A stretch of 64,000 bases of DNA from a virus. Its lineage: Duplodnaviria; Heunggongvirae; Uroviricota; Caudoviricetes. The notes under the pieces were generated by a model that was given only the letters and a program-made list of their open reading frames with translations, was not told where the DNA came from and did no database searches. The first letter of the stretch is position 1. Each line of letters begins with the position of its first letter. The translations under genes and the position numbers were made by a program. Shown one piece after another: positions 4,098 to 64,000 of the stretch. The DNA lies in the IMG/VR virus record IMGVR_UViG_3300047393_000100. One strand, given 5' to 3'.

Positions 4098-4099
4098 TC

Positions 4100-5186: not shown

Positions 5187-6614
5187 ATGAAATTCGTAGA
5201 CGCTTTAAGACAAGAAGACATTTTAACAGAAAATGGAATGGCAACAAATTCAACTTCGTTGAATGCATGTGTCGATTTATTCTTTAATATTGGTGCAATG
5301 AGAGGACAGGATAAACAACGTTTACTTGCAACCTTTTCTAAAGCATTCAACGAAGATCCTAAACGTGCTATGAAACTTTTGTTTTGGGCAAGAGATGTTA
5401 GAGGTGGAGCAGGAGAACGTCAAATATTTAAAGACATTTTAGTTTATCTTGCCGAAAACCATGATTTGGCATTAAAACCAAATTTACATTTAATTCCAGA
5501 ATATGGCCGCTTTGATGATTTACTAGTATTAGTAGGAACATATTTAGAAAATGATGCTTTGCAACTTATTGCAGATGCTCTTAAATCTGAAAATGGTTTA
5601 TGTGCAAAATGGATGCCACGTAAAGGTCAAGTAGCTGAAAAGTTACGTGCATTCATAAAATTTTCACCAAAACAATACCGTAAAACTTTAGTTAATTTAA
5701 CCAACGTTGTTGAAACTAAAATGTGTGCTAAGGATTGGAACTCTATTGATTTTGGCAAATTACCATCGGTTGCTTCTGCGAGATATCAAAAAGCATTTGG
5801 TAAAAATGCATATGAAAGTTACTCAGCGTATATAGAATCTCTAGTAAAAGGAGAAGCTAAAATTAATGCAGGTGCAATTTATCCGTATGATGTTACTAAG
5901 TCTTTGACACATGGTAACGCTAAAGTTGCAAACGAACAATGGAAAGCACTTCCTAATTATTTAGAAGGAGCAAACGATATGATTTTACCAGTGGTAGACG
6001 TTTCAGGTTCTATGTCAAGTCCAGCAGGTGGAAGTAAAACTGTAACTTGTATGGATGTTGCAATTTCATTAGGTCTTTATATTTCTGAAAGAAATGAAGG
6101 TCCTTTCAAAGATGCATTCATCACATTCTCAAGTAAACCACAGTTGCAAGTATTAAGTGGTACATTGAATGATCGCTACGCACAGATGTCAAACTCCGAT
6201 TGGGGAATGTCAACAGATCTCGAGGCTACATTCAAACTGATCTTAGATCAGGCCACTAAACATAATTTGTCCCAAGACGAGATGCCAAATAAAATTTTAA
6301 TCTTGTCGGATATGGAATTTAATCAAGCAACTTCTACTGGATGGAGAAATGAAAGTGGAAACTGGAATCCAACTGCTCAAAAACTGATTGAATCAATGTA
6401 TTCGGATGCAGGCTATAAAATGCCCCAAATCATATACTGGAACATTCAATCTAGAAACGGAGGAGTACCCGTTGAATTTGATGCAGCAGGAACTGCATTA
6501 GTGTCAGGATTCTCTCCATCGATTATGACAAGTTTACTTGGAGGAGATATCGAATCTCCACAACAAATAATGGATAAAACAATTTTAAGTGAGAGATACT
6601 CACCAATTGTTTAA
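5187..6614 (+). CDS. DUF2828-family protein (TROVE-like helical domain plus vWA domain; Ro60-like)
   Basis: LLFWARDVRGGAGER, IPEYGRFDDL, CAKWMPRK, INAGAIYPYDV, MIDAS motif VVDVSGSM, ILSDMEF, IIYWNI, LVSGFSPS. Confidence 0.8.
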   Translation: MKFVDALRQEDILTENGMATNSTSLNACVDLFFNIGAMRGQDKQRLLATFSKAFNEDPKRAMKLLFWARDVRGGAGERQIFKDILVYLAENHDLALKPNLHLIPEYGRFDDLLVLVGTYLENDALQLIADALKSENGLCAKWMPRKGQVAEKLRAFIKFSPKQYRKTLVNLTNVVETKMCAKDWNSIDFGKLPSVASARYQKAFGKNAYESYSAYIESLVKGEAKINAGAIYPYDVTKSLTHGNAKVANEQWKALPNYLEGANDMILPVVDVSGSMSSPAGGSKTVTCMDVAISLGLYISERNEGPFKDAFITFSSKPQLQVLSGTLNDRYAQMSNSDWGMSTDLEATFKLILDQATKHNLSQDEMPNKILILSDMEFNQATSTGWRNESGNWNPTAQKLIESMYSDAGYKMPQIIYWNIQSRNGGVPVEFDAAGTALVSGFSPSIMTSLLGGDIESPQQIMDKTILSERYSPIV

Positions 6615-6623
6615 GATATATAA
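6615..6623 (+). promoter_or_regulatory. Putative late promoter GATATATAA driving the noncoding unit
   Basis: Same motif precedes the protease, capsid, sheath, tube and tape-measure genes. Confidence 0.65.
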
Positions 6624-6629
6624 TAAAAT

Positions 6630-6685
6630 TGGTTCTTTACAGCAAACAATCACAAGCAAACAATCAGCAACTACGATTAGAACCA
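6630..6685 (+). ncRNA. Small RNA with terminal helix and ACAGCAA signature
   Basis: TGGTTCT/AGAACCA helix, then TT-ACAGCAA; loop holds tandem AGCAAACAATC repeats. Confidence 0.55.
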
Positions 6686-6688
6686 GGT

Positions 6689-6933
6689 GGATCGGTACAG
6701 CAAAAAGTACAAACACAGCTATGATAGGTCTGGAATATGAAGCCCCTTATATCATTTGCATATAAGGTGCGGATCAGACAAGTGAAGGCTAACACTAAAA
6801 AATAAGCTACACGTCAAACCACCCCAATAGGTGCAAGTAGGATGAGTTGAAGTTTAGTAGACTCTCGCGAAAGCAAAGCCGAAGACGTAAAAGAGGGTTA
6901 TTCCGCCGGGAAGAAAATCACGAACAACGATCC
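6689..6933 (+). ncRNA. About 245-nt multi-stem RNA with terminal helix and ACAGCAA signature
   Basis: GGATCG/CGATCC closing helix, then GT-ACAGCAA; inner helices GTCTG/CAGAC, CCTTATAT/ATATAAGG, AGTG/CACT, CACC/GGTG, CTCT/AGAG; GC-richer than flanks. Confidence 0.55.
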
Positions 6934-6944
6934 CGTAATAATTC

Positions 6945-6973
6945 AATCCAGGCCAATAAGCCTGGATTTTTTT
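6945..6973 (+). terminator. Rho-independent terminator closing the ncRNA unit
   Basis: AATCCAGGC-CAATAA-GCCTGGATT then T tract. Confidence 0.9.
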
Positions 6974-6994
6974 ATGTAAATATTCCATCTAACT

Positions 6995-7023
6995 CGAAAC
7001 AAATTAGTAATTCGATATATAAT
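6995..7023 (+). promoter_or_regulatory. Putative middle promoter CGAAAC-N17-TATAAT
   Basis: 17-nt spacer; overlaps GATATATAA at 7014. Confidence 0.65.
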
Positions 7024-8898: not shown

Positions 8899-10295
8899 TG
8901 ATATTAGATATCGAGCAAAGAGAAAAGGATATTATCATATCCTATTATAATGACAAAGGTGAAGTAGCATTTAAACAATATCCTGTAGATAAATTCCAAA
9001 ACTGGTATGTATGCGATGATAAAGATAGAGCAGCAAGTACACAATATACTAATTGGGATGGTCGCAAAGTTAAATTAGGATATGGTAGGCAGTTTAATAA
9101 GTTTTCAATCCTTTATTTTTTAGATTCTCTTTCTGAAAAAGATAAAGCAGAATTGACCGCATATAATATGCCAAAGACTTATTTTGTCGATATCGAAACT
9201 GAAATCATTGATGGATTTCCTAAGGCAGAAGAAGCTAAAAGTAGAATTCTTTCCTTTTCAATTATTACACCAGAACGTAAAGCAATTGTATTAGGTCTTG
9301 AAGATATGGATTCAGAAAGTATTAAAAAAATACAAGATGATACCAATGAATATTTCAAAGACTTTGATCAAGATTGGGAATTTAAGTACTATAAATTCAA
9401 ATCTGAATATGATATGGTTTATACGTTTTTGATGAAGTTCTTGCCTAAATTCCCAATGATGACAGGATGGAACTTTATTAACTATGACTGGCAGTATATT
9501 GTAAATCGATGTAAAAGATTACAAATTGATATTGCAGATGTCAGCATGACCAAAGAGGTTGATAAATCAGACAGTAGACCTCTCCATATCGGAATCTTAG
9601 ATTACATGCAATTATATGATAAGTATGATAGAAGTGTAAAGGTAAAAGAATCCAATTCACTTGATTATGTTTCAAGCCAAGTTTTAAAAGTTAACAAGAT
9701 TAAATTTACAGGATCTTTACAAGATCTTTATAGAGATAATTTTACAAAGTATATTTATTACAACGTAGTCGATTCAGTATTGGTTTATTATATTGACCAG
9801 AAACTAAAATCGATGGAGGTACTTTTAACTCTTGCAAACATTACAAACATGCCACTTTATAAGGCAAGTTCTCCAGTGGCAGTTACTGAAGCTATTATGG
9901 CTAGAAAACTTGCAGAGCAAGGAATGAGAATTGGTAGTGAGGAAAAGAAAGATTCTAATAAAGATGGACAATATGCAGGTGCATTTGTAAAAGAACCAAT
10001 ACTTGGATTCTATGAAGGTGTAAGTGCATTCGATTTTGCTTCCCTATACCCTTCAATTATGCGTCAATTTAATATTTCACCAGACGCATATATTGAAAAA
10101 ATAAGTAAAGGTGAAATAGCAGAAAGAAGAAAGGATAAAGATATAATTGTATGCGATAATGGAGTTGTATATAATAATGAAGATTCTATTCTTAGAAAAA
10201 TTCTTAGCGATCTTTACCAACAGCGTAAGGATTATAAAAAAACTTCATATGAGTATTATACTAAAGCAGATCAATATAAAAAAATGCTAAAATAA
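8898..10295 (+). CDS. gp43A: DNA polymerase family B, N-terminal subunit (exonuclease plus first palm half; gp43A-like)
   Basis: ExoI VDIETE, ExoII GWNFINYDW, ExoIII YNVVDS, FDFASLYPS; ends in the fingers helix. Confidence 0.9.
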   Translation: MILDIEQREKDIIISYYNDKGEVAFKQYPVDKFQNWYVCDDKDRAASTQYTNWDGRKVKLGYGRQFNKFSILYFLDSLSEKDKAELTAYNMPKTYFVDIETEIIDGFPKAEEAKSRILSFSIITPERKAIVLGLEDMDSESIKKIQDDTNEYFKDFDQDWEFKYYKFKSEYDMVYTFLMKFLPKFPMMTGWNFINYDWQYIVNRCKRLQIDIADVSMTKEVDKSDSRPLHIGILDYMQLYDKYDRSVKVKESNSLDYVSSQVLKVNKIKFTGSLQDLYRDNFTKYIYYNVVDSVLVYYIDQKLKSMEVLLTLANITNMPLYKASSPVAVTEAIMARKLAEQGMRIGSEEKKDSNKDGQYAGAFVKEPILGFYEGVSAFDFASLYPSIMRQFNISPDAYIEKISKGEIAERRKDKDIIVCDNGVVYNNEDSILRKILSDLYQQRKDYKKTSYEYYTKADQYKKMLK

Positions 10296-13890: not shown

Positions 13891-15087
13891 ATGACAATAG
13901 ATGAATTAATACTAAAGCCAGAGAGCGATCTGACACAGGAAGATATTAAAATTCTGGTAGAGCATTATTCAACATTGTCTGCCAAATATACCGCGTATGA
14001 ACAGGCTGTTAAGGTAATGCTTAACTCAATCTATGGCGCATTCGGTAATAAATGGTTTCACTTTTTTAATATAGACATCGCAGAATCAATTACCCTACAG
14101 GGACAATCTGCGATTCTATATTCTGAAAAGATTCTTAATAAGTATTTCCAAGAATTCTGGCCAAAGGATAAAGCAGTGCATGCACACTTTAATATTACCA
14201 TAAAAAATAAATTAGTAAGGCCTTCTGTAGTATACATCGATACGGATTCGTGTTATGTCCAGTTTGAAGAAATGTATGAATCTATCGAATGGTTAGGTGA
14301 TAAGTTAACCATTGACGATTTTATTATGAAAATATACAACTTTAGACTTAAAGATTATATTTTCAAATGTATGGACAAATATGCGGAAGCAACCAATACG
14401 GAAAACTTCCTTATGTTTGAACTAGAAACAATTGCATACTCCGGAATTTGGTTAGCAAAGAAAAAATATTTACAGAATATTGCATGGGAAGATAAAATAG
14501 GAATCGATGAAAGATATCCATCCCTTAAAAAGATTAAAACAATTGGATATGATACAATTCAAAGTTCTACTCCTGCGATTGCGCGTAAACACTTGACAGA
14601 AGCTCTTAAATTAATCCTATCAGAAAAACCAACAGCATCTTTATTAAAAAGACTTGTTGATTATTTAAAACAATGTAAGAAGGAGTTTCAATTGGCGAGT
14701 GTAGATGAAATCTGTTTTAATAAGAGAACTAATAATATTGAAAAGTATATCGTAGATGATACTATAGAATTTCAGTATGGTCTTAAGTGTCCTCCTAATG
14801 TCAAGGCAGCAGGATTTTATAACTTCTTAATGAATACTAATCCAAAATACAAGAACAAGTACAAGATGATTGGTAATGGAGAGAAGCTAAAATTATATCA
14901 TTGTAAACATACAACATGTGAAATATTTGCATATCAACCAGGAGCTCATCCATACGAAATAGCACCTCCTATCGATTATGAACTACAATTTGAAAAAAGT
15001 GTAATCGATCCATTAAATAGGGTATTAGTGGCAGTTGGATTACATTCACTAAATAGAAATTTAATTTATTCAACATCATTATTTTAA
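13891..15087 (+). CDS. gp43B: DNA polymerase family B, C-terminal subunit (gp43B-like)
   Basis: KVMLNSIYGAFG, YIDTDS, AKKKY, C-terminal clamp-binding-like STSLF. Confidence 0.9.
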   Translation: MTIDELILKPESDLTQEDIKILVEHYSTLSAKYTAYEQAVKVMLNSIYGAFGNKWFHFFNIDIAESITLQGQSAILYSEKILNKYFQEFWPKDKAVHAHFNITIKNKLVRPSVVYIDTDSCYVQFEEMYESIEWLGDKLTIDDFIMKIYNFRLKDYIFKCMDKYAEATNTENFLMFELETIAYSGIWLAKKKYLQNIAWEDKIGIDERYPSLKKIKTIGYDTIQSSTPAIARKHLTEALKLILSEKPTASLLKRLVDYLKQCKKEFQLASVDEICFNKRTNNIEKYIVDDTIEFQYGLKCPPNVKAAGFYNFLMNTNPKYKNKYKMIGNGEKLKLYHCKHTTCEIFAYQPGAHPYEIAPPIDYELQFEKSVIDPLNRVLVAVGLHSLNRNLIYSTSLF

Positions 15088-34721: not shown

Positions 34722-35378
34722 ATGCAAACATACGATTTAAGTCTTGTGCCAACATCTGTCGATGTTACACTATACAAATATAACTATATCGATAATAGAT
34801 TATGGACTCAAATACATAATGAAACTGATTTTATACAAAATCCAGATGGTTCTATAATAACGTCTACTCAACAGATTAGCGCTATATTAGATAGACATTA
34901 CATCGATATTATAAATAAAATCAAAACAGTAGGTTCAGAGGTTATTTATAAGGAAATAAATAGTGTTTATTTTCTTTATCAAATGGTTTTAGAAATGGAG
35001 AATCTCCAATATATTAAGCTTAATCTAAATACAGATAAAAGTTATAATAGACTTATCGAGTTAGATGGAAGTAAAATATTGCAATTCGGATTTAAGGTTC
35101 TTACTGCAACTATACGACTTTCTGATATTTATGACGATGATGAATTAGAATCAGTTAATGCTGTTTTAAATAAAATTGGAATACTTAAGAACAATCAAAA
35201 CTATACAAGAGTATTTGCAAAAGATTTAGCAGAAGCGATAGATTCACACCTTATTCTATTAGAAGAAGATTCAGAAAATGAACTAGATGAAGACGCAATT
35301 ATCACAGATATTTTAGATATTTTAGAAGCCAAATTAGAACCTGAAAATTCATTAATACTTTTGATAACAGACTACTAG
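34722..35378 (+). CDS. Hypothetical protein
   Basis: Long ORF, TAG stop. Confidence 0.7.
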   Translation: MQTYDLSLVPTSVDVTLYKYNYIDNRLWTQIHNETDFIQNPDGSIITSTQQISAILDRHYIDIINKIKTVGSEVIYKEINSVYFLYQMVLEMENLQYIKLNLNTDKSYNRLIELDGSKILQFGFKVLTATIRLSDIYDDDELESVNAVLNKIGILKNNQNYTRVFAKDLAEAIDSHLILLEEDSENELDEDAIITDILDILEAKLEPENSLILLITDY

Positions 35379-50929: not shown

Positions 50930-52054
50930 ATGGAAAATCAAAATTCAGTTTGCTATGTAGGGCAAATTACCGAAATTAAAAAAATAGAAGGTGCTGATAA
51001 CATCGAATTAGTAATAGTAGGAGGTTGGAATGCAATCACCAAAAAAGGTGAATTTAATGAAGGATCATTGGTTGCCATTGCAACCACAGATGCTGTTATT
51101 CCAGAGGAACTTTCTGAAAAAATGGGAGTTACTAATTACTTACGCAAAGGCACTAGGGTACGTACTGTAAAGTTAAGAGGAGTATACTCTGAGTGTTTAA
51201 TTATTCCTATAATCTATATCAAATCTTCAAGTATTAGAGAAGGTAGAGATTTAATGGAAGAATTAGGTATTACTAAATTTGAACCACCTGTTAAACAAAT
51301 ACAATTGTCTAATGGTAAAAAGATTCGTTATCAATCTAATCCAAACTTCCATGTTTATTATAAGTTTCCAAACTTAAAAAATGTGACTGGGTTATTTACT
51401 GAAGAAGATAATGTACAAATCACCAGAAAATTACATGGAACTAATGCTAGATTTGGAATTATTCGCAAGAATAAATTATCATTTTTCGACAAGTTAAAGA
51501 AATTCTTTGGATTAACAGATGAGTGGATTAATTATGAATATATTTATGGATCTCATAATGTTGAAAAGGGAAGTGATTCTCAAGGATTTTATTCAACAGA
51601 TGTTTGGAGAACTTCAGCAGATGAATATAATATCAAAGAAAAACTATGGTACGCTGTAAAATCAAAAACAGTTGAAGAAATTGGAGTAGGTTTTGTTCTT
51701 TATGGTGAAATTTATGGTGCTGGAATTCAAAAGAATTATGAATATGGTTTAAAAGACACTCGATTTGCTGCATTTGATTTAACAATAAATGGAAAATATA
51801 TGGACCCTGAAATGACAGAGTGCATTGTTGAAGATGTTCTAGAACTTCCACATGTTACTGTGTTATACGAAGGTTTATGGAATCAAGAAATTCAAGACAA
51901 ACTTACATTTAATAATTTTATTGATGGTACTAAAGTTCCACATGAAGGAATCGTAATTAAGCATGAAACTGGAGAAAGACAAAAGGTTGCAAAGGTAATT
52001 AATCCAGAGTATTTGATATTTGGAGAGAAAAATAATGTTGGAGATTCTCACTAA
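50930..52054 (+). CDS. RNA ligase, DRB0094/Rnl2-like, with N-terminal OB-like domain
   Basis: IEGADNIE N-domain, motif I KLHGTN, YGEIYG.GIQK, FDL, EGIVIK, KVINPEYL. Confidence 0.88.
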   Translation: MENQNSVCYVGQITEIKKIEGADNIELVIVGGWNAITKKGEFNEGSLVAIATTDAVIPEELSEKMGVTNYLRKGTRVRTVKLRGVYSECLIIPIIYIKSSSIREGRDLMEELGITKFEPPVKQIQLSNGKKIRYQSNPNFHVYYKFPNLKNVTGLFTEEDNVQITRKLHGTNARFGIIRKNKLSFFDKLKKFFGLTDEWINYEYIYGSHNVEKGSDSQGFYSTDVWRTSADEYNIKEKLWYAVKSKTVEEIGVGFVLYGEIYGAGIQKNYEYGLKDTRFAAFDLTINGKYMDPEMTECIVEDVLELPHVTVLYEGLWNQEIQDKLTFNNFIDGTKVPHEGIVIKHETGERQKVAKVINPEYLIFGEKNNVGDSH

Positions 52055-52691: not shown

Positions 52692-52913
52692 ATGGAAAAG
52701 TTAACTACAGGAATCGGATTAATCTTTGCTGGGATAGCATTATTAATAGTGGCTGCAATATTATTTGCATGGCCAGTACAATTATTATGGAATGGATGTT
52801 TAATTGGTGCAGTTGATGGAGTTCACCCAATCACATTTTGGCAAGCGCTAGGATTAAACTTCTTATTTTCAATCCTATTTAAAGGAACTTCAACTTCAAG
52901 TAAAGGTAAATAA
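52692..52913 (+). CDS. Small two-TM membrane protein
   Basis: Two hydrophobic segments; WPVQLLWN, ITFWQALGL. Confidence 0.7.
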   Translation: MEKLTTGIGLIFAGIALLIVAAILFAWPVQLLWNGCLIGAVDGVHPITFWQALGLNFLFSILFKGTSTSSKGK

Positions 52914-53362
52914 TGAAAACAGTAATCTTCGATCTTGATGGAACACTAGCTCTTATTGATGCTAGAAGAACTAAAGCTACAAAGGCAGATGGTAAAATAA
53001 ATTGGAAAACATTCTTTGATCCATTGAATATTCCATTAGATCTTCCAAATGCACCCGTAATTGAATCCTTCAAAGCTCTTAAATCATCTGGCTTTATTGT
53101 TGGAATATTTAGTGGTAGAGATGATATTAGTCGAGATGCCACAAAGATCTGGTTAGATCAACATGGAATTAGACCAGATTTCATGAAAATGAGAAAAAAT
53201 GGTAGTTTTACGCCAGACGATAAATTAAAGAAACTTTGGCTAGATGATTTAATCCAAGATGGGCATGATGTTATGTGTGTTTTTGATGATAGAGATAAGG
53301 TAGTTAAAATGTGGAGAGATAATGGCATTTCTTGTTTTCAAGTAGCTGAAGGCCCATTTTAA
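52913..53362 (+). CDS. HAD phosphatase, T4 PNK (PseT) 3'-phosphatase-like
   Basis: FDLDGTLA, FSGR, MR....PDD.LK, FDDR..VV.MWR..G..C.QVA.G. Confidence 0.85.
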   Translation: MKTVIFDLDGTLALIDARRTKATKADGKINWKTFFDPLNIPLDLPNAPVIESFKALKSSGFIVGIFSGRDDISRDATKIWLDQHGIRPDFMKMRKNGSFTPDDKLKKLWLDDLIQDGHDVMCVFDDRDKVVKMWRDNGISCFQVAEGPF

Positions 53363-59482: not shown

Positions 59483-59512
59483 TACTATTATTAATCTTAA
59501 TATTAAATAAAA

Positions 59513-59878
59513 ATGGAAACAATTAACACAAAAAATAATCCTAAGTACATATTTAAAGAAGATTCAGGTCAAGGTAAACCTACATGGGTACTTAAGGTTG
59601 AAGATGATAGTTGGCAAAAAATTAAACACCTATTTGCTGCTAGCGGCAGACCTTCATCTGACCTAATTAAAAAAATTCCTTTTGGAAATTATGTATGGGA
59701 TTTGTATTCTCAAGAATATTCAATTTCAGGAGATAGGGTGATGCATAAAATATATGGAGTATGTGGTGATTATACTTTTGGAAATGCACCCACGTTTTAT
59801 AGACAAAAATTAAGAGGTAATAAAAGAGCTGCTAAACATGTTTTTGAGCATTTTATTAAAACCTTTTTAAATGACTAA
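59513..59878 (+). CDS. Hypothetical protein
   Basis: ORF after the promoter. Confidence 0.7.
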   Translation: METINTKNNPKYIFKEDSGQGKPTWVLKVEDDSWQKIKHLFAASGRPSSDLIKKIPFGNYVWDLYSQEYSISGDRVMHKIYGVCGDYTFGNAPTFYRQKLRGNKRAAKHVFEHFIKTFLND

Positions 59879-60224
59879 ATATAAAATACCTAGAGATCGT
59901 GTGTTTAAGGATTTTGGAATTGTAAGAACATTAAATGGTCTATATATCTGTCCAGGATGGATCCCTGTTGATGAAGGAACAACTCGAGATGATATAGAAT
60001 TCAGTGATGATATAACAGTTGACAAATATAAGCAACCCTTAAAATCACCTGAAATATCTCAGAAAGAACTTGAATTTAGGGTACCATCGTCAAATGGCAA
60101 GTCTGAATATTTAGTTACTTATAAAAGAGAGCAGTGGAATTGTAATTGTCCAGCATCTTCATTTAGAAGAGGACACTGTAAACATATTAAGGCTCTTGAA
60201 ACAAATATGGTAACTGATATATAA
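59871..60224 (+). CDS. SWIM zinc-finger protein
   Basis: WNCNCP.......CKHI. Confidence 0.8.
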   Translation: MTKYKIPRDRVFKDFGIVRTLNGLYICPGWIPVDEGTTRDDIEFSDDITVDKYKQPLKSPEISQKELEFRVPSSNGKSEYLVTYKREQWNCNCPASSFRRGHCKHIKALETNMVTDI

Positions 60225-60234
60225 TTAACAATTA

Positions 60235-60308
60235 GGTTCGGTAGCTCAGCTGGATAGAGCAACGGTTTTCTAAACCGTAGGCCACAGGTTCGAATCCTGT
60301 CCGAATCA
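60235..60308 (+). tRNA. tRNA-Arg(UCU)
   Basis: Full cloverleaf; ACGGT-TTTCTAA-ACCGT; GGTTCGAATCC; late promoter at 60216. Confidence 0.93.
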
Positions 60309-60311
60309 CAA

Positions 60312-60599
60312 ATGAAAGTAGTACATATAAATAAAGAACCATACGATGTTTATATTGGAAGACCAAGTATTTGGGGAAATCCATATTCACATAAACAAGG
60401 TACTCTTGCTGAATTTAAGGTAAATACAACAAAGGAAGCAATAAGTGCATACGAAAAATATTTACTTTCGAATAGTGAACTGATGGAAAGTTTACAAGAA
60501 TTAAAAGGAAAGACATTAGGATGTTGGTGTAAACCAGGTCCATGTCATGGTGATATTATCATAAAGATATTAAAAACATATGGGAATGAACTTTTTTGA
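60312..60599 (+). CDS. DUF4326-family protein
   Basis: VYIGRPS.WGNP, LKGK.LGCWCKP..CHGD. Confidence 0.88.
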   Translation: MKVVHINKEPYDVYIGRPSIWGNPYSHKQGTLAEFKVNTTKEAISAYEKYLLSNSELMESLQELKGKTLGCWCKPGPCHGDIIIKILKTYGNELF

Positions 60600-60627
60600 A
60601 AATAATTTAAAAAAAGTATAAATTTGC

Positions 60628-60656
60628 TGAAACAAAAAGATATATAGATATATAAT
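60628..60656 (+). promoter_or_regulatory. Overlapping middle (TGAAAC-N17-TATAAT) and late (GATATATAA) promoters
   Basis: TGAAAC 60628, TATAAT 60651, GATATATA at 60639 and 60647. Confidence 0.7.
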
Positions 60657-60706
60657 TAACACAAGAACATTAACACTCTTGTTTTTATAGAGAATAAAAT
60701 AACAAA

Positions 60707-60835
60707 ATGCAAACGACTCAAAAACATATTATTAGTAATCAACCAACCCTAGGGATGGTTGGCACAATATGTCCCTTTTATAATGGGGAACAGGGTTTTG
60801 GTCTTTTTGAAAAAAGAAATGTTAGTATGAGCTAA
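60707..60835 (+). CDS. 42-aa leader-like ORF upstream of the tRNA array
   Basis: MQTTQKHIISNQPTLGMVGTICPFYNGEQGFGLFEKRNVSMS; A-rich leader; terminator follows. Confidence 0.5.
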   Translation: MQTTQKHIISNQPTLGMVGTICPFYNGEQGFGLFEKRNVSMS

Positions 60836-60859
60836 TCACTATTAACATATACAATATTC

Positions 60860-60893
60860 AAAAGGACCTTTCAGAAATGATTGGTCCTTTTTT
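60860..60893 (+). terminator. Rho-independent terminator just before the tRNA array
   Basis: AAAAGGACC...GGTCCTTTT then T tract. Confidence 0.8.
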
Positions 60894-60903
60894 GATTTTA
60901 CAG

Positions 60904-60974
60904 GTTCAGTTGGCCGATTGGTTAGGCGCAGGATTGCAAACTCTGAGAGATTGGTTCGATTCCAATACTGAACT
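60904..60974 (+). tRNA. tRNA-Cys(GCA)
   Basis: Cloverleaf, loop TTGCAAA, U73. Confidence 0.9.
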
Positions 60975-60980
60975 CAAACA

Positions 60981-60999
60981 AACGTTATTTGACATATTG
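60981..60999 (+). repeat. 19-bp direct repeat (boxA-like), second copy 61780-61798
   Basis: AACGTTATTTGACATATTG twice. Confidence 0.85.
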
Positions 61000-61011
61000 G
61001 TAATAATAGAT

Positions 61012-61084
61012 GGATCTTTGGTATAGCTGGTGCGTACGCTAGTCTGAAGAACTAGAGGAGTAGGTTCGATTCCTACAGGATCCA
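61012..61084 (+). tRNA. tRNA-Phe(GAA)
   Basis: CTAGT-CTGAAGA-ACTAG; canonical T arm. Confidence 0.9.
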
Positions 61085-61092
61085 CAATATCT

Positions 61093-61163
61093 TGCCTATT
61101 CGTATAAAGGTGGTACAATGCTCTTTGACAGCATCGGAGGAAGGTCAGTACTTCCATAGGCAA
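61093..61163 (+). tRNA. tRNA-Gln(UUG) with noncanonical T loop
   Basis: ATGCT-CTTTGAC-AGCAT; T arm GGAAG-GTCAGTA-CTTCC; perfect acceptor stem with U1-A72. Confidence 0.75.
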
Positions 61164-61175
61164 CAAATTAAATTT

Positions 61176-61251
61176 CGGGTAGTAGAGGAGTCAGGTTTAT
61201 CTCGCTGGCCTTGGACGCTAGAGCACGCAGGTTCGAATCCTGCCTACCCGA
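61176..61251 (+). tRNA. tRNA-Pro(UGG)
   Basis: Loop CTTGGAC; canonical T arm; CGGGTAG/CTACCCG. Confidence 0.93.
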
Positions 61252-61315
61252 CTAGGAGACTGTTACTAATACATAGGGTCGTTTGTGGAAAAACGGCTGC
61301 ATAGAATTAGATTTT

Positions 61316-61389
61316 GCCTCCATAGCTCAGTTGGCTAGAGCAGCTGATTTGTAATCAGCAGGTCGTTGGTTCGAGTCCGACTGGAGGCT
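61316..61389 (+). tRNA. tRNA-Thr(UGU)
   Basis: GCTGA-TTTGTAA-TCAGC; canonical arms. Confidence 0.95.
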
Positions 61390-61399
61390 CAAAATATAA

Positions 61400-61526
61400 A
61401 GGATGGTTACAGCAAAAAATACTGAATAGACTGTTAATCTCGTGGTCGTCGGTTCGAATCCGGCTTTGTGTATCGTAAGAAAAGCAAATAGCTCAGTTGG
61501 TAGAGCACGTATCAAAAAGCAATCCT
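61400..61526 (+). ncRNA. Circularly permuted tRNA-like RNA (YrlA-type Y-RNA architecture) with ACAGCAA signature
   Basis: Order: AGGAT..TTACAGCAA, Asn-like loop CTGTTAA, T arm GTCGG-TTCGAAT-CCGGC, capped acceptor TTTG/CAAA, D arm TAGCTCAGTTGGTAGAGC, closing ATCCT. Confidence 0.8.
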
Positions 61527-61618
61527 GTTATTTTAATTTAAAAAGTGTCTCGGTCCGCTCTGCTGTTGTGGCAACGACGAGGTCTCGGTAGGCAGAAGGC
61601 CTCTGACCTACCCCAAAT

Positions 61619-61690
61619 GCGACTATCGTATAATGGTTATTACTTTAGACTTCCAATCTGAAGATGACAGTTCGATTCTGTCTAGTCGCT
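61619..61690 (+). tRNA. tRNA-Gly(UCC)
   Basis: TTAGA-CTTCCAA-TCTGA; GCGACTA/TAGTCGC; U73. Confidence 0.92.
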
Positions 61691-61693
61691 CAA

Positions 61694-61762
61694 AATTGTT
61701 AATAATTTTTGAAAATAAATGCAAAAAAAGTTTTCATGGTTCAAATATTATAGTTATATTTG
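61694..61762 (+). promoter_or_regulatory. Putative host-sigma (early) promoter module inside the tRNA array
   Basis: TTGTTAATAA...GAAAATAAATGCAAAAAA...TCAAATATTATAGTTATATTTG, shared with the 56.9 kb module. Confidence 0.7.
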
Positions 61763-61812
61763 TATAAGAAATTAAAACTAACGTTATTTGACATATTGAT
61801 AATAATTTAAAT

Positions 61813-61884
61813 GCTGCCATCGTCTAACGGTTAGGACCTATGGTTTTCATCCATAAAATTGGAGTTCGATTCTCCATGGCAGTA
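61813..61884 (+). tRNA. tRNA-Glu(UUC)
   Basis: TATGG-TTTTCAT-CCATA; canonical T arm. Confidence 0.9.
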
Positions 61885-61983
61885 CAATTTAATAATTATT
61901 CCAAAGTATGATTTTGGTAAGCATCTGAAAGTAACATCAGATTAGCAATTATAATTATTAAGAGGTAAGGAAAAGACTAAGTT

Positions 61984-62057
61984 TATTATGTGGCTGAGAG
62001 GTGATAGCACTACCAATTCTGGGTAGATGGATGAAGGTTCGAGTCCTTCCATAATAT
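61984..62057 (+). ncRNA. tRNA-like element with intact cloverleaf but aberrant anticodon loop
   Basis: TATTATG/CATAATA; CTACC-AATTCTG-GGTAG (no U33, no purine 37); GAAGG-TTCGAGT-CCTTC. Confidence 0.65.
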
Positions 62058-62305
62058 CGAAAACAAGCAAGGGCAGGTTAAACCCTAGGATTGCAATGGT
62101 CTTAGCTTAATTTTCACAAGTACTTTAAGACGTTGGAGATGGGCTCGCTACCTAATCAAAAATGAGCTTCGAAACCTTAGCAATAAGGCAGCTTAAAGTA
62201 AAGGCATAGGTAACTGAATAATGTGGTTCAAATCCACATCCGTAATAGTCAAAGGGAAAGCATTTGGAGGTTGATGTATGATGTTATAACGGATCTGCAG
62301 GTCCA

Positions 62306-62364
62306 GGATAGGTCTGGTTAAAGTAGGCAGTGCCAATACAAAAGGTTCGAATCCTTTCTATCCA
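62306..62364 (+). ncRNA. Mini tRNA-like element lacking an anticodon arm
   Basis: GGATAG/CTATCC acceptor, AAAGG-TTCGAAT-CCTTT T arm, only 29 nt between them. Confidence 0.6.
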
Positions 62365-62462
62365 CAAAGAAGATGCCTGATCAGCAATGTCTTCCTAACG
62401 ATTAAGATTGCATATAGCTTAAAGAAATTTGTCGACACTAATTTCTGTAATTTTAATTGATT

Positions 62463-62537
62463 GCTTTGTTTAGTTTATCTGGCGGAGAACGCGGGCGACC
62501 AGCCCGAAGACAATGGGTTCGAATCCCATACAAAGAC
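62463..62537 (+). ncRNA. tRNA-like element with aberrant anticodon loop (nominal ACC)
   Basis: CGGG-CGACCAG-CCCG (G33); ATGGG-TTCGAAT-CCCAT; CTTTGT/ACAAAG. Confidence 0.6.
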
Positions 62538-62543
62538 ACTAAA

Positions 62544-62621
62544 TGCGATGTTGGTCAGAGACGGTCTCATGAGCCGTATCGGTAGATATACCCTCCAGAG
62601 GTTCAAATCCTCTAATCGCAA
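62544..62621 (+). ncRNA. tRNA-Met(CAU)-like element with deleted D arm and long variable arm
   Basis: ACGGT-CTCATGA-GCCGT; GGTA-GATA-TACC variable hairpin; AGAGG-TTCAAAT-CCTCT. Confidence 0.6.
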
Positions 62622-62674
62622 CAAATCTTAAGAAGTAATTAATCCTAAGACGGATGGGTTCGAAACCATCGGAA

Positions 62675-62767
62675 TGATTATGGTGTATGGTGCACAGTAG
62701 AAGTTAGTAGGTACGGAAGTGACCGAGGGCGGACACGGGATTAAGGTTCAAATCCTTATTAGTCAGC
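62675..62767 (+). ncRNA. Expanded tRNA-like element
   Basis: TGATTA/TAGTCA acceptor, GTG-TATGGTG-CAC D-like arm, TAAGG-TTCAAAT-CCTTA T arm, about 45-nt insert with no anticodon arm. Confidence 0.5.
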
Positions 62768-62860
62768 AAAATCAATTAAAGTAAAAAGCTCGTACTGACT
62801 CTTAACTGAGAGGTACCAGTATATAGAAGGCGGGTGAAGCTCCCGAAAATTGATTTAAAT

Positions 62861-62932
62861 TGGCCTGTCGTATAAGGGTTATTACGGATGACTGTTAATC
62901 ATCTTATGCAGGTTCGATTCCTGCCGGGCCAG
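62861..62932 (+). tRNA. tRNA-Asn(GUU)
   Basis: GATGA-CTGTTAA-TCATC; G73. Confidence 0.92.
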
Positions 62933-62978
62933 CGAACAGGGTTTCACACTTAGACAGCCAACTATGGAAAGTGTAATT

Positions 62979-63059
62979 GGGATGCTTCAGTCACTGGTGT
63001 GATAGACGGTCTGTAAAATCGTTCTGTAAGAGGGTATGGTTCGATTCCATAGTGTCCCA
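62979..63059 (+). tRNA. tRNA-Tyr(GUA)
   Basis: ACGGT-CTGTAAA-ATCGT; long variable arm; TATGG-TTCGATT-CCATA. Confidence 0.88.
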
Positions 63060-63253
63060 CTATAATAAGTTGATGTACTGTGAAAGTTAATATAGGCATA
63101 TATTAATTAGGTAGGTTCGAATCCTGTTCAATAATTCCTATGTGGTGGAGCCAAGTAACAGATAATACATCATAGCCGATTTGGGTTGTGCACCTCGTCC
63201 GAGAAGCCCTAATAGTTCCTAATAGTTCGGTCTGGAACAACTTATTATTTAAT

Positions 63254-63329
63254 GGTCTTTTAGCTCAGTTGGTAGAGCAGATCGCTCATAACGATAAGGT
63301 CTCAGGTTCGAATCCTGAATGGACCACCA
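63254..63329 (+). tRNA. tRNA-CAU (elongator Met or Ile2), CCA encoded
   Basis: Loop CTCATAA; canonical D and T arms; ends ACCA. Confidence 0.92.
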
Positions 63330-63331
63330 TT

Positions 63332-63403
63332 AGTCGATTAGTTCAATGGATAGAACAACGGGCTTCGAACCCGGAAATAAGGGTTCGAATCCTTTATTGA
63401 CTA
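63332..63403 (+). tRNA. tRNA-Arg(UCG)
   Basis: CGGG-CTTCGAA-CCCG; canonical T arm. Confidence 0.88.
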
Positions 63404-63413
63404 CAAGATATAC

Positions 63414-63485
63414 TGCGGTTTAGTGTAAATGGTTAGCATTCTGGGCTCATAACCCAGAGGCGAGGTTCGAGTCCTTAATCCGCTA
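63414..63485 (+). tRNA. Initiator tRNA-fMet(CAU)
   Basis: Three G-C pairs CTGGG-CTCATAA-CCCAG; 1-72 mismatch. Confidence 0.88.
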
Positions 63486-63490
63486 CTAAA

Positions 63491-63623
63491 TGATTGTACT
63501 TGTGCAGGGAAGCACAGCCCACCGGTAAACTGGGTGCCTTTAATACGGCTAGGTTAATTTAAGGAAATGATGAAAGTGTCGCGAGTTAGTATTCATTTTA
63601 GGTTCGAATCCCCTTACAGTCAC
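63491..63623 (+). ncRNA. Expanded (133-nt) tRNA-like element
   Basis: TGATTGTA/TACAGTCA helix, TGTGC-AGGGAA-GCACA D-like arm, GGTTCGAATCC T loop, long insert. Confidence 0.5.
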
Positions 63624-63684
63624 TGTGAATAGTTTATAGGTCGTTCTGTCCTTGAGTTCTATTTAAAAACTCTAAAAAAGGCAA

Positions 63685-63755
63685 GCCCCTTAGGCTTTAA
63701 AGTGAAGCACGATACTTTTAATATCGGGAAGTAGGAGCATTACCTACAAGGGGTA
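63685..63755 (+). tRNA. tRNA-Lys(UUU) with noncanonical T loop
   Basis: CGATA-CTTTTAA-TATCG; GTAGG-AGCATTA-CCTAC; GCCCCTT/AAGGGGT; A at position 8. Confidence 0.75.
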
Positions 63756-63800
63756 CAACAGTTTACTTCGACAACGTTCTGTAAAAATCGGAGTCGACCA

Positions 63801-63871
63801 GCCTCGTTGGCGTAATGGAAGCGTATTTCTTTTACATGGAAATGGCAGTGGTTCGATTCCACTACGAGGTA
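63801..63871 (+). tRNA. tRNA-Val(UAC)
   Basis: TTTCT-TTTACAT-GGAAA; AGTGG-TTCGATT-CCACT. Confidence 0.88.
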
Positions 63872-64000
63872 CAAAAATGGGGATGATAGTTTATACAGTA
63901 CGGCAATTCTGTATATGAGTTCATAGCCATACTACGAAAATGGTTCTGTTGCCGCAGGAAAGAAGTAGTAGTTTTGTTCTTAGTGGAATGGAGACCACGC

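What the first reader, a model, noticed from the sequence alone, without database searches (positions are those of the whole stretch)
61400..61526. Circularly permuted tRNA-Asn-like RNA with Y-RNA (YrlA) architecture
Seen: the tRNA modules occur in permuted order. An Asn-type anticodon loop (AGA-CTGTTAA-TCT) comes first, then the variable loop TGGTC and a perfect T arm (61448-61464). Next is an acceptor-like stem closed by a loop (TTTG 61465-68 / CAAA 61485-88), then a perfect D arm (61489-61506). The ends pair (AGGAT/ATCCT) and carry TT-ACAGCAA. Established: bacterial YrlA RNAs mimic tRNA in this T-AS-D order with the Ro-binding stem in place of the anticodon arm. Inference: a Y-like RNA derived from tRNA-Asn that still keeps the ancestral anticodon loop. 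It cannot be aminoacylated unless it is circularised and recut, as permuted tRNAs are in red algae and archaea.
Basis: partly seen in the sequence, partly recalled or inferred. Interest (0 to 1): 0.85.

Follow-up and report, generated by a model that had tools for sequence, protein, structure and literature searches.

The report
Sealed tRNA mimic with Ro-type handle
This is a real, conserved 129-nt phage RNA: a back-to-front tRNA with a sealed tip, joined to a short "handle" that also sits on two RNAs next to the phage's Ro60-like protein gene, so it is most likely a Y-RNA-type partner of that protein and not a working tRNA.

Summary
Window 61399-61527 (+) lies in the tRNA array of an uncultured T4-like phage. 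It encodes a structured RNA with a 7-position terminal helix, a UUACAGCAA motif, a 3-bp hairpin with an Asn-type 7-nt loop, a T arm, a closed acceptor-like hairpin and a D arm. Nineteen homologues from viral contigs keep 97.8% of pairs, and 16 of 29 pairs show compensatory changes. In relatives the acceptor hairpin is rebuilt with UUCG or GAAA loops, which argues against a processed tRNA or gene debris.

The same helix+ACAGCAA handle heads two further RNAs directly 3' of the window's DUF2828 gene. The predicted fold of that protein matches Ro60. Tandem handle RNAs flank DUF2828 genes in 8 of 9 cultured phage lineages checked.

Best reading (about 0.7): a Y-RNA-like partner of a Ro60-like protein, with a whole tRNA mimic as cargo. 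It works like YrlA but is not a member: Rfam YrlA scores 34 bits against a cut-off of 69, and the protein-binding module differs.

I found no paper or Rfam family for this RNA class. This scan has noted the same family before on other DNA, and a similar permuted tRNA-like element elsewhere in this genome.

The parts
61399..61527 (+). Whole RNA as defined by conservation, from AAGGAT to ATCCTG: handle plus sealed, permuted tRNA mimic
   Evidence: The covariance model R1 scores 134.8 bits, E 8.5e-31. Homologues align end to end. In four relatives the element sits 0-3 nt after tRNA-Pro and 5 nt before tRNA-Leu.
61400..61406 (+). Terminal helix P1, 5' strand (AGGATGG)
   Evidence: Pairs with 61520-61526. 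In the wider alignment 6 of 7 pairs covary, for example AGGATCG/CGATCCT, TGGACTC/GAGTCCA and AGGTTTC/GAAACCT.
61407..61415 (+). Handle motif TTACAGCAA: two nt, then ACAGCAA
   Evidence: Near-invariant in 19 homologues. The same motif follows the helix in RNA-1 and RNA-2 beside the DUF2828 gene and in cultured phages.
61416..61427 (+). A-rich single-stranded linker
   Evidence: Alignment A3: conserved A-rich character with no pairing partner.
61428..61440 (+). Anticodon-arm mimic: 3-bp stem AGA/TCT with 7-nt loop CTGTTAA
   Evidence: All 3 pairs covary (AGG/CCT, GCT/AGC, GCA/TGC, ACA/TGT, TCC/GGA). The loop is CTGTTAA in most copies, including mycobacteriophage Faith1.
61441..61443 (+). Junction helix, 5' strand (CGT). 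Stacked on the hairpin it completes a nicked anticodon stem.
   Evidence: Pairs with ACG 61507-09. It covaries to AGT/ACT in L016 and to CC/GG in L025.
61444..61447 (+). Variable-loop equivalent GGTC, including the C48 partner of G15
   Evidence: Invariant in A3. The assignment of tRNA positions rests on general tRNA knowledge.
61448..61464 (+). T arm: GTCGG, TTCGAAT, CCGGC
   Evidence: 3 of 5 pairs covary. It matches the T arm of the Rfam YrlA and tRNA models.
61465..61488 (+). Closed acceptor-like hairpin: TTTGT, 14-nt loop, GCAAA
   Evidence: All 7 modelled pairs covary. Relatives have 7-8-bp stems capped by TTCG or GAAA loops, or long extensions.
61489..61506 (+). U8-A9 equivalent plus D arm: GCTC, AGTTGGTA, GAGC
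   Evidence: Invariant in the close family and covaries in distant members. G18, G19, A14 and G15 are present.
61507..61509 (+). Junction helix, 3' strand (ACG)
   Evidence: Pairs with 61441-43.
61510..61519 (+). A-rich 3' linker
   Evidence: Alignment A3.
61520..61527 (+). P1 3' strand (CAATCCT) plus the conserved trailing G
   Evidence: A G follows the helix in nearly all handle RNAs.
5187..6614 (+). DUF2828 + DUF7788 protein (475 aa): a Ro60-like ring protein, the proposed partner
   Evidence: Pfam PF11443 at 8.7e-34 and PF25043 at 1.9e-54. PHROG 850 'RNA-binding protein'. AlphaFold model with pLDDT 87.5. The top 13 PDB matches are all Ro60/TROVE, TM up to 0.64. The top five Swiss-Prot matches are all Ro60.
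6629..6687 (+). RNA-1: minimal handle RNA (TTGGTTCT, TTACAGCAA ... AGAACCAG)
   Evidence: The helix covaries (GGTTCT/AGAACC to GGTTCC/GGAACC) in four relatives. The orthologue in G001 is the best Rfam Class I RNA match, 28.9 bits.
6689..6936 (+). RNA-2: handle RNA (GGATCG, GTACAGCAAAAAGTAC ... CGATCC) enclosing a roughly 200-nt structured domain
   Evidence: fold z -2.7. The helix covaries (GGATCG/CGATCC to GGATAG/CTATCC). No Rfam family matches.
6945..6975 (+). Intrinsic terminator closing the DUF2828 / RNA-1 / RNA-2 unit
   Evidence: A 9-bp GC-rich stem followed by a T run.
60196..60225 (+). Promoter-like site (TTGAAA, 18 nt, TATAAT) just upstream of the first tRNA of the array
   Evidence: 11 of 12 matches. 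This is a consensus match only. No terminator-like site lies between it and the RNA apart from tRNA arms.

Best explanation
The RNA is a phage non-coding RNA of the Y-RNA type with two modules.

Module 1 is a handle. It is a 7-bp helix formed by the two ends of the RNA, followed on the 5' side by two nucleotides and ACAGCAA. I infer that it docks onto the phage's Ro60-like ring protein (DUF2828, window 5187-6614).

Module 2 is the cargo, an almost complete tRNA mimic. It has a T arm, a D arm, all the usual elbow nucleotides, an acceptor stem sealed by a loop, and an Asn-type anticodon stem-loop. The chain enters and leaves through the 5' strand of the anticodon stem, so the gene order is permuted.

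The RNA is probably made as part of the tRNA-array transcript and set free when the neighbouring tRNAs are processed (inferred). By analogy with Rsr-YrlA, the tRNA-shaped part would bring the ring protein together with tRNA-handling factors or tRNA-directed nucleases. That could serve surveillance or repair of tRNAs during infection, or the RNA could act as a decoy. The phage also encodes an RNA ligase and a PNKP-type phosphatase.

Shown: the structure and its conservation, the shared handle, the genomic linkage to DUF2828, and the Ro60 fold. Inferred: binding, processing and biological role.
For: 1. Structure. 19 homologues keep 97.8% of pairs, 16 of 29 pairs change on both sides, and 0 of 500 shuffles reach this. 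RNAalifold agrees. In a wider set of 38 sequences 95.8% of cells are paired and 26 of 29 pairs covary (an alignment fitted to the model).
2. The acceptor is a selected hairpin. It is rebuilt as CACTGCTC-TTCG-GAGTAGTG, as 7 bp plus TTCG, as 6-7 bp plus GAAA, or as long extended stems.
3. The handle is a separate unit. The same helix+ACAGCAA sits on RNA-1 and RNA-2 directly 3' of the DUF2828 stop codon, with covarying helices in four relatives. It also occurs on mini RNAs that lack the tRNA body.
4. Linkage to DUF2828 across unrelated phages. A full homologue (58.6 bits, loop CTGTTAA) lies 100 nt 3' of Faith1 gp55. Another lies in the tRNA array that begins about 170 nt 3' of the SUSP1 gene, about 1 kb from the gene end. 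Two to four tandem handle RNAs abut the gene in Listeria, Staphylococcus, Campylobacter, Bacillus, Enterococcus, Mycobacterium, Escherichia and Cronobacter phages, against 0.2-2.7 expected in shuffles.
5. Co-occurrence. 7 of 9 contigs that carry a full element also carry DUF2828, and the other two are only 32-42% complete.
6. Protein fold. Ro60/TROVE structures are the top 13 PDB hits (E 1e-7, TM 0.42-0.64) and the top 5 Swiss-Prot hits.
7. Precedent. Rsr binds adjacent YrlA tRNA mimics (PMC4201824). A phage TROVE-type Ro60 binds two adjacent Y-like RNAs in vitro (PMC12135203).
Against: - No binding, expression or end-mapping data exist.
- This copy lies 55 kb from the DUF2828 gene.
- Relatives G004-G006 carry DUF2828, RNA-1 and RNA-2 but not the tRNA-type element, so this member is dispensable.
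- DUF2828 resembles Ro60 in fold, but sequence similarity is marginal (best profile E 0.008).
- The handle is unlike the known Ro-binding helix of Y RNAs.
- Many homologous contigs are related to each other, so co-occurrence counts are not independent.
Confidence: 0.7

Rival explanations
1. The RNA is a real sealed tRNA mimic, but the handle serves something other than DUF2828. It could be a processing or stability signal, or a docking site for another factor such as an RNA ligase, a nucleotidyltransferase or a host protein. The adjacency to DUF2828 would then reflect shared regulation only.
For: Only genomic association supports the DUF2828 link. Dictyostelid Class I RNAs, which have the same layout (GTTGRCCTTACAGCAA ... 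GTCAACTG, PMC5054030), are reported to bind an RRM protein, Rnp1A (PMC7919456). This copy sits far from the DUF2828 gene.
Against: Handle RNAs abut DUF2828 genes in 8 of 9 lineages with otherwise unrelated neighbours. That pattern is hard to explain without a functional tie. The protein's Ro60 fold predicts exactly this kind of partner RNA.
Confidence: 0.17
2. It is a permuted or split tRNA gene that is matured into a chargeable tRNA. One route is circularisation and recutting, as in red algae and archaea. Another is RNase P opening of the acceptor loop followed by CCA addition, which would leave a two-piece tRNA held together by the handle helix.
For: All tRNA elements are present, including a 7-nt anticodon loop with U33 and A37. 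M. smegmatis YrlA, which has a 7-bp acceptor stem, is cut by RNase P and receives CCA in vivo (PMC4201824). Cronobacter phage S13 has unpermuted relatives with open 7-bp acceptor stems and encoded CCA. The phage encodes an RNA ligase.
Against: This copy's acceptor stem has only 5 bp. Relatives cap the stem with UUCG or GAAA tetraloops and have no discriminator or CCA. Position 34 varies (G, A, U) on an otherwise constant body. No bulge-helix-bulge motif is apparent at the termini. The phage already has a normal tRNA-Asn at 62861-62933. The handle also occurs without any tRNA body.
Confidence: 0.05
3. It is an ordinary YrlA bound by a canonical Rsr (TROVE) protein of the phage or its host.
For: Rfam YrlA is the only non-tRNA family that matches full length (34.1 bits).
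Against: The score is half the gathering cut-off, and it comes from the T, acceptor and D part. The YrlA stem that carries the Ro site aligns poorly. Junctions of adjacent tRNAs also score 24 bits. Rfam YrlA does not detect the Faith1, SUSP1 or S13 homologues at E 0.1. None of the roughly 40 window ORFs scanned against Pfam, which include nearly all of 200 aa or more, matched TROVE (PF05731); the only Ro60-like one is the DUF2828 protein.
Confidence: 0.03
4. It is debris: the 3' part of a dead tRNA-Asn followed by the 5' part of a dead neighbouring tRNA.
For: blastn aligns positions 31-109 with tRNA-Asn/next-tRNA junctions in two cultured phages. That is a plausible origin.
Against: There is compensatory change in every variable helix. 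The acceptor hairpin has been rebuilt. The handle is conserved. Homologues occur from mycobacteriophages to T4-like phages.
Confidence: 0.01

Closest known systems
YrlA-type bacterial and phage Y RNAs bound by Rsr/Ro60 (Rfam RF02553; Chen et al. 2014, PMC4201824)
   Same: The two ends pair in a stem. The body mimics a tRNA in the order T arm, closed acceptor-like stem, D arm, and keeps the elbow nucleotides. The partner protein (proposed here) has the Ro60 fold. Sister RNAs lie next to that protein's gene.
   Different: The protein-binding module is a different handle (7-bp helix, NN, ACAGCAA). The protein family is DUF2828/DUF7788 and not TROVE. A complete anticodon stem-loop is retained. This copy sits inside the tRNA array, 55 kb from the protein gene. 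It scores below the Rfam cut-off (34 against 69 bits).
Thermus phage phiLo Ro60 with Yrl1 and Yrl2 (PMC12135203; PDB 9KOP, 9L5Y)
   Same: A phage-encoded ring protein of Ro60 fold with two small RNAs encoded beside its gene. Binding in vitro was shown there. 9KOP is the top structural match to the window's DUF2828 model.
   Different: The phiLo protein is a TROVE-domain protein. Its RNAs were picked by a CGAA motif and a stem-bulge-stem shape, with no ACAGCAA handle or tRNA body reported. Sequence similarity to DUF2828 is marginal (E 0.06).
Class I RNAs of dictyostelid social amoebae (Rfam RF01414; PMC7919456; search pattern in PMC5054030)
   Same: The handle layout is the same: a short stem joining the 5' and 3' ends, then CUUACAGCAA on the 5' side, a variable interior, and the 3' strand followed by UG. 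RF01414's best hits in the related phage contigs fall on handle RNAs (up to 28.9 bits).
   Different: All scores are below the gathering cut-off (41.5). Class I RNAs are 42-65 nt, eukaryotic and transcribed from their own DUSE promoter. They are reported to bind an RRM protein. No tRNA body is described. Homology is not shown.
Circularly permuted tRNA genes of Cyanidioschyzon merolae and some archaea
   Same: The 3' half of the tRNA lies upstream of the 5' half, and the termini pair with each other.
   Different: Those genes are matured through a bulge-helix-bulge cut, a circular intermediate, and RNase P and tRNase Z cuts to give working tRNAs. Here the acceptor tip is a conserved sealed hairpin, no bulge-helix-bulge is apparent, and the junction carries a conserved protein-handle motif.

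Membership tests
YrlA (Rfam RF02553) | Score at or above the Rfam gathering cut-off (69 bits) | tested here: not met
   34.1 bits at 61423-61537, E 4e-6 to 9e-5. Distant homologues are not detected at E 0.1.
YrlA (Rfam RF02553) | tRNA-like domain in the order T arm, closed acceptor-like stem, D arm, with elbow nucleotides | tested here: met
   G18, G19, T54, T55, C56, U8, A14, G15 and C48 equivalents are present and invariant in A3.
YrlA (Rfam RF02553) | Long 5'/3' stem carrying the conserved Ro60 (Rsr) binding sequence | tested here: not met
   The stem part of the model aligns with deletions and mismatches. The conserved module is instead helix+ACAGCAA.
YrlA (Rfam RF02553) | Encoded next to a TROVE-domain Ro60 orthologue | tested here: not met
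   The only Ro60-like gene found is DUF2828, 55 kb away. Sister RNAs with the same handle do abut it.
YrlA (Rfam RF02553) | Bound by Ro60 and modified by TruB and DusA in vivo | not testable with these tools
   Needs RIP or CLIP and modification mapping.
Handle RNAs beside DUF2828 genes (unnamed family, defined here) | 6-7-bp terminal helix, two nt, ACAGCAA, variable interior, complementary strand followed by G | tested here: met
   61400-61415 with 61520-61527. This copy has one G-A mismatch. It matches the pattern seen.
Handle RNAs beside DUF2828 genes (unnamed family, defined here) | Same genome encodes a DUF2828 protein | tested here: met
   Window 5187-6614. 7 of 9 element-bearing contigs carry the gene.
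Permuted tRNA genes (processed to functional tRNA) | 3' half upstream of 5' half | tested here: met
Permuted tRNA genes (processed to functional tRNA) | Acceptor ends separated by a removable linker, with a discriminator base and a 7-bp acceptor stem | tested here: not met
   This copy has a 5-bp stem. Relatives close the stem with 4-nt UUCG or GAAA loops.
Permuted tRNA genes (processed to functional tRNA) | Bulge-helix-bulge at the paired termini and a circular intermediate | tested here: inconclusive
   No 3-nt/4-bp/3-nt motif is visible around P1 by inspection. A circular RNA cannot be tested here.
Permuted tRNA genes (processed to functional tRNA) | Anticodon conserved among orthologues | tested here: not met
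   Loops CTGTTAA, CTATTAA, CTTTTAA and CTTATAA occur on near-identical bodies.
Dictyostelid Class I RNA (Rfam RF01414) | Score at or above the gathering cut-off (41.5 bits) | tested here: not met
   The best hit on handle RNAs is 28.9 bits. There was no hit at E 10 in window 59500-64000 or 6600-7000.
Dictyostelid Class I RNA (Rfam RF01414) | Short terminal stem plus an adjacent 11-nt motif (..CCTTACAGCAA) | tested here: met
   GGTTACAGCAA here, against the published pattern GTTGRCCTTACAGCAA ... GTCAACTG (PMC5054030).

The most novel reading that the evidence does not exclude
DUF2828 proteins and ACAGCAA-handle RNAs form a second, widespread Ro/Y-type ribonucleoprotein system of phages that has not been described. 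Its handle has the same layout as the unexplained Class I RNAs of social amoebae. In this RNA the ring is loaded with a complete, sealed tRNA-Asn mimic. That mimic would act as bait or sensor for host enzymes that attack or modify anticodon loops, and would work alongside the phage's RNA ligase and PNKP-type repair genes.
Probability: 0.25. Interest if true: 0.85.

Novelty: new variant of a known kind. Interest (0 to 1): 0.72.

Why it matters
Ro60 and Y RNAs are a conserved but poorly understood RNA-surveillance system, and the role of the tRNA-like domain of bacterial Y RNAs is still open. This RNA belongs to an apparently uncatalogued family that pairs a different Ro60-fold protein (DUF2828, present in 711 cultured phage records) with modular RNAs. 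The cargo ranges from nothing, to a bare anticodon hairpin, to a whole tRNA mimic.

Several carriers are easy laboratory phages, including Felix O1-type coliphages, cluster L mycobacteriophages, and Listeria and Staphylococcus phages. The question of what a Ro ring does with a tRNA mimic therefore becomes directly testable.

The family also contains both circular permutations of the same RNA, which is a rare natural example. Many copies are currently mis-annotated as odd tRNAs or not annotated at all.

Tried and rejected
- Single-sequence folding gave z -0.17 and was uninformative.
- Rfam at gathering thresholds found only tRNAs.
- Megablast against cultured phages found no close relative.
- No whole genome is held for the window.
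- A loose regex census of handles was swamped by noise. A strict version finds RNA-1 plus one hit inside ORF 34722-35378, which is probably chance (0.45 expected). The strict version misses the candidate (G-A mismatch) and RNA-2 (C before the trailing G).
- I considered a pseudoknot between the loop CUGU and the ACAG of the motif. I rejected it because the motif changes to GCUG or ACUG while the loop stays CUGUUAA.
- I considered the motif as a palindromic DNA operator (TTGCTGCAA). I rejected it because most copies are not palindromic.
- I tested whether the tRNA-type element tracks DUF2828 strictly. It does not: G004-G006 have the gene, RNA-1, RNA-2 and a mini handle RNA, but no full element.
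- A single-sequence PDB search did not find Ro60, and the profile search was only marginal. The Ro60 assignment therefore rests on the predicted fold.
- The supplements of Chen et al. 2014 and two Wolin reviews are not held. I could not check whether cluster L phage RNAs were listed there.
Full report
**Setting**

The window is part of an uncultured, low-GC (about 30%) T4-like phage. It encodes a gp20-type portal, the gp23 capsid protein, a T4-type terminase, a tail sheath and a DnaB-like helicase. Its 3' end holds an array of 15 tRNA genes, all on the + strand (60235-63872). A strong sigma-70-like site precedes the array at 60196-60225. The finding lies between tRNA-Thr (61316-61390) and tRNA-Gly (61619-61691). 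ARAGORN and the Rfam gathering thresholds call nothing there.

**Observation**

The order 5' to 3' is:
- AGGATGG (61400-06)
- TTACAGCAA (61407-15)
- an A-rich linker
- a 3-bp hairpin, AGA / CTGTTAA / TCT (61428-40)
- CGT (61441-43)
- GGTC
- the T arm (61448-64)
- an acceptor-like stem, TTTGT with GCAAA, closed by a 14-nt loop (61465-88)
- TA plus the D arm (61489-61506)
- ACG (61507-09)
- an A-rich linker
- CAATCCT-G (61520-27)

In tRNA numbering the chain ends lie between positions 28 and 29. CG (27-28) comes from the 3' segment and AGA (29-31) from the 5' segment. Together they pair with TCTCG (39-43). The result is an anticodon stem that is complete but nicked, and the terminal helix branches off at the nick. 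Folding the single sequence is not informative (z -0.17).

**Is it real?**

A neighbouring protein brought in 15 related viral loci, and a DNA pattern brought in over a hundred more. blastn and nhmmer then found homologues of the element at 79-99% identity.

In an alignment of 19 distinct copies (A3) my structure is kept in 97.8% of cells. Column shuffles give 83%, and sliding the partners gives 25-43%. Sixteen of 29 pairs change on both sides, and 0 of 500 shuffles reach any measure. RNAalifold, given no structure, returns the same terminal helix, hairpin, T arm, acceptor hairpin and D arm.

The most telling changes are these:
- The acceptor hairpin goes from TTTGT/GCAAA to CTTGT/GCAAG. In other copies it is replaced outright by CACTGCTC-TTCG-GAGTAGTG, by 7 bp with a TTCG loop, by 6-7 bp with a GAAA loop, or by long extended stems.
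- The small hairpin goes AGA/TCT, AGG/CCT, GCT/AGC, GCA/TGC, ACA/TGT, TCC/GGA.
- The junction helix goes CGT/ACG to AGT/ACT.
- The terminal helix goes AGGATGG/CCATCCT to AGGATCG/CGATCCT.

In four relatives the element fills the gap between tRNA-Pro and tRNA-Leu almost exactly, 0-3 nt after one and 5 nt before the other. This fits release of the RNA by ordinary tRNA processing, which is an inference. The "two tRNA remnants" idea is excluded.

**The handle**

A covariance model (R1) finds the window copy at 134.8 bits. Junctions of adjacent tRNAs score only 32-35 bits.

R1 also found short RNAs that keep the terminal helix and the NN-ACAGCAA motif but lack the whole tRNA body. One of them lay just 3' of the DUF2828 gene of a sister contig.

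In the window itself, the 330 nt after the DUF2828 stop codon (6614) hold two such RNAs:
- RNA-1 (6629-6687): TTGGTTCT-TTACAGCAA ... AGAACCAG.
- RNA-2 (6689-6936): GGATCG-GTACAGCAAAAAGTAC ... CGATCC, enclosing a roughly 200-nt structured domain.

An intrinsic terminator follows them. Both RNAs are conserved in four relatives, and their helices covary. The first 26 nt of RNA-2 are nearly the same as those of the candidate. The candidate's ends are therefore a module that this phage uses at least three times.

**The protein**

ORF 5187-6614 matches DUF2828 plus DUF7788 and PHROG 850, "RNA-binding protein". An AlphaFold model built on 41 diverse homologues (pLDDT 87.5, pTM 0.86) finds only Ro60/TROVE structures at the top of the PDB. 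These are Xenopus, human and Deinococcus Ro60 and the Thermus phage phiLo Ro60, at E about 1e-7 and TM up to 0.64. Ro60 entries also fill the top five places in Swiss-Prot models. Sequence similarity to Ro60 is marginal (profile E 0.008). I therefore call it a Ro60-fold protein of a separate family.

**Linkage beyond this phage**

tblastn finds the protein in 711 cultured phage records. I looked at nine lineages.
- R1 finds a full homologue (58.6 bits, same architecture, same CTGTTAA loop) 100 nt after the gene in mycobacteriophage Faith1.
- R1 finds another full homologue in the tRNA array that begins about 170 nt after the gene in E. coli phage SUSP1, about 1 kb from the gene end.
- A simple helix+NN+ACAGCAA scan finds two to four tandem handle RNAs abutting the gene in Listeria LP-083-2, Staphylococcus S-CoN_Ph11, Campylobacter F368, Bacillus Tsamsa, Enterococcus EfV12, Faith1, SUSP1 and Cronobacter S13. 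Shuffles give 0.2-2.7 per locus.
- Only Vibrio PC-Liy1 was unclear.

Seven of nine contigs that carry a full element also carry DUF2828. The two that lack it are 32-42% complete. The tRNA-type member is optional, however. Three 234-kb relatives have the gene, RNA-1, RNA-2 and a mini handle RNA but no full element.

**Two topologies**

In Cronobacter phage S13, two features annotated as tRNAs are 121 and 113 nt long. They are ordinary open-acceptor tRNAs with 7-bp acceptor stems and encoded CCA. In them the same handle is a hairpin (CAAACT-loop-AGTTTG-TATTCAGCA) inserted just 5' of the anticodon arm or loop. The window RNA is the circular permutation of that design: the handle is open and the acceptor is sealed. 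It does not mean that this RNA is re-permuted during maturation.

**What kind of tRNA does it mimic?**

The segment from the anticodon loop through the T arm resembles tRNA-Asn genes more than any other isotype among 234 phage tRNAs. blastn aligns positions 31-109 with tRNA-Asn/next-tRNA junctions of two cultured phages, which suggests the origin. The D-arm half is generic.

The loop is CTGTTAA in most copies, including Faith1 and a mini RNA that carries only handle plus hairpin. Close relatives also show CTATTAA, CTTTTAA and CTTATAA, and distant copies carry other anticodon-like loops. The loop is kept as an anticodon-loop mimic, not as a decoding anticodon.

**Comparison with known systems**

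- YrlA. The nearest described thing is YrlA (Chen et al. 2014, PMC4201824). It has the same T, closed-acceptor, D mimicry, a 5'/3' stem bound by Ro60, and genes beside rsr. Rfam YrlA matches full length, but at 34 bits against a cut-off of 69. The score comes from the tRNA-like part, and the model does not see the Faith1, SUSP1 or S13 relatives. The RNA works like a YrlA but is not a member.
- Thermus phage phiLo. Its TROVE-type Ro60 binds two adjacent Y-like RNAs in vitro (PMC12135203), which is a useful precedent. Those RNAs were picked by a CGAA motif.
- LeBron gp53. This DUF2828 homologue is annotated "Ro-like RNA-binding protein" and is toxic when overexpressed (PMC13148394). No partner RNA is mentioned there.
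- Dictyostelid Class I RNAs. The handle has the same layout. The published search pattern is GTTGRCCTTACAGCAA ... GTCAACTG (PMC5054030). Rfam RF01414's best hits in related phage contigs fall on handle RNAs, at up to 28.9 bits against a cut-off of 41.5. This is a resemblance; homology is not shown.
- Literature. Full-text searches for DUF2828, for the motif, and for Ro60 with phage and tRNA-like found no description of these RNAs.
- Earlier notes of this scan. They describe the same protein-handle pairing on other genomes and another sealed tRNA mimic about 40 kb beyond this window. I re-tested their main claims here independently.

**Mechanism and odds**

- Most likely (0.7): the handle docks on the Ro60-like ring and the sealed tRNA mimic is cargo. 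The cargo would connect the ring to tRNA-handling enzymes or to tRNA-directed nucleases. The phage also encodes an RNA ligase (50930-52054) and a PNKP-type phosphatase (52913-53362), the classic tRNA-repair pair. This makes a role in tRNA surveillance, repair or decoying plausible but unproven.
- Rivals: the handle serves another factor (0.17); a processed or split working tRNA (0.05); a canonical YrlA (0.03); debris (0.01).

**Limits**

Many contigs are related to each other. The wider covariation count uses an alignment fitted to the model.

Noticed in passing
window 61541-61615: A GC-rich stretch of about 75 nt lies between the RNA and tRNA-Gly (GTGTCTCGG ... GGTCTCGGTAGGCAGAAGGCCTCTGACCTACCC). 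It is conserved in L001 and L016. It has no Rfam match and no handle, and its fold z-score is only -0.68. It may be another small RNA of the array.
   Followed up: partly
window 6689-6936: RNA-2 beside the DUF2828 gene encloses a roughly 200-nt domain with long invariant blocks in four relatives. No Rfam family matches it at E 10. Its cargo is not tRNA-like and is unexplained.
   Followed up: partly
L150:3856-3976 and 3986-4098 (Cronobacter phage S13, KC954775.1): Two annotated tRNAs of 121 and 113 nt are canonical open-acceptor tRNAs with encoded CCA. Each carries the handle as a hairpin inserted 5' of the anticodon arm or loop. This is the unpermuted form of the same design, and these RNAs might be chargeable. 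A third, sealed copy follows at 4114-4250.
   Followed up: partly
L036:4221-4284; L144:1501-1559 (G004:44244-44302): Mini handle RNAs whose only cargo is an anticodon-arm-like hairpin (GGA-CTGTTAA-TCC and TGA-CTGTAAT-TCA). They suggest that the anticodon-loop mimic is itself a selected cargo.
   Followed up: partly
L049:11894-12047: One homologue carries a tandem duplication of about 26 nt covering the variable region and T arm.
   Followed up: no
L063:2563-2949; L025:6492-7114; L106:8851-10200: Some contigs carry two or three tRNA-type handle RNAs in tandem, with different helices and different anticodon-like loops.
   Followed up: no
window 35095-35343: A handle-like signature (AGGTTC-TTACTGCAA ... 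GAACCT-G) lies inside ORF 34722-35378. It is probably chance (0.45 expected per shuffled window).
   Followed up: no
window 50930-52054 and 52913-53362: An RNA ligase (PF09414 with an N-terminal OB domain) and a stand-alone PNKP-type phosphatase lie 8-10 kb upstream of the tRNA array. No kinase domain was found next to the phosphatase; the following ORF is a pyrimidine-dimer glycosylase.
   Followed up: partly
window 8898-10295 and 13891-15087: Two separate ORFs match the N-terminal (exonuclease plus start of polymerase) and later parts of family B DNA polymerase. A ribonucleotide reductase gene and other ORFs lie between them, so the polymerase appears to be split.
   Followed up: no
L007-L013, e.g. 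L007:8415-8504: ARAGORN calls a 90-nt tRNA with a four-base anticodon (ttga) in several related contigs.
   Followed up: no
L001:2141-2250: The near-identical sister contig has about 100 extra nt right after the element. The insert begins like a tRNA (GTGTAGCTCAG...) but is not called by ARAGORN.
   Followed up: no
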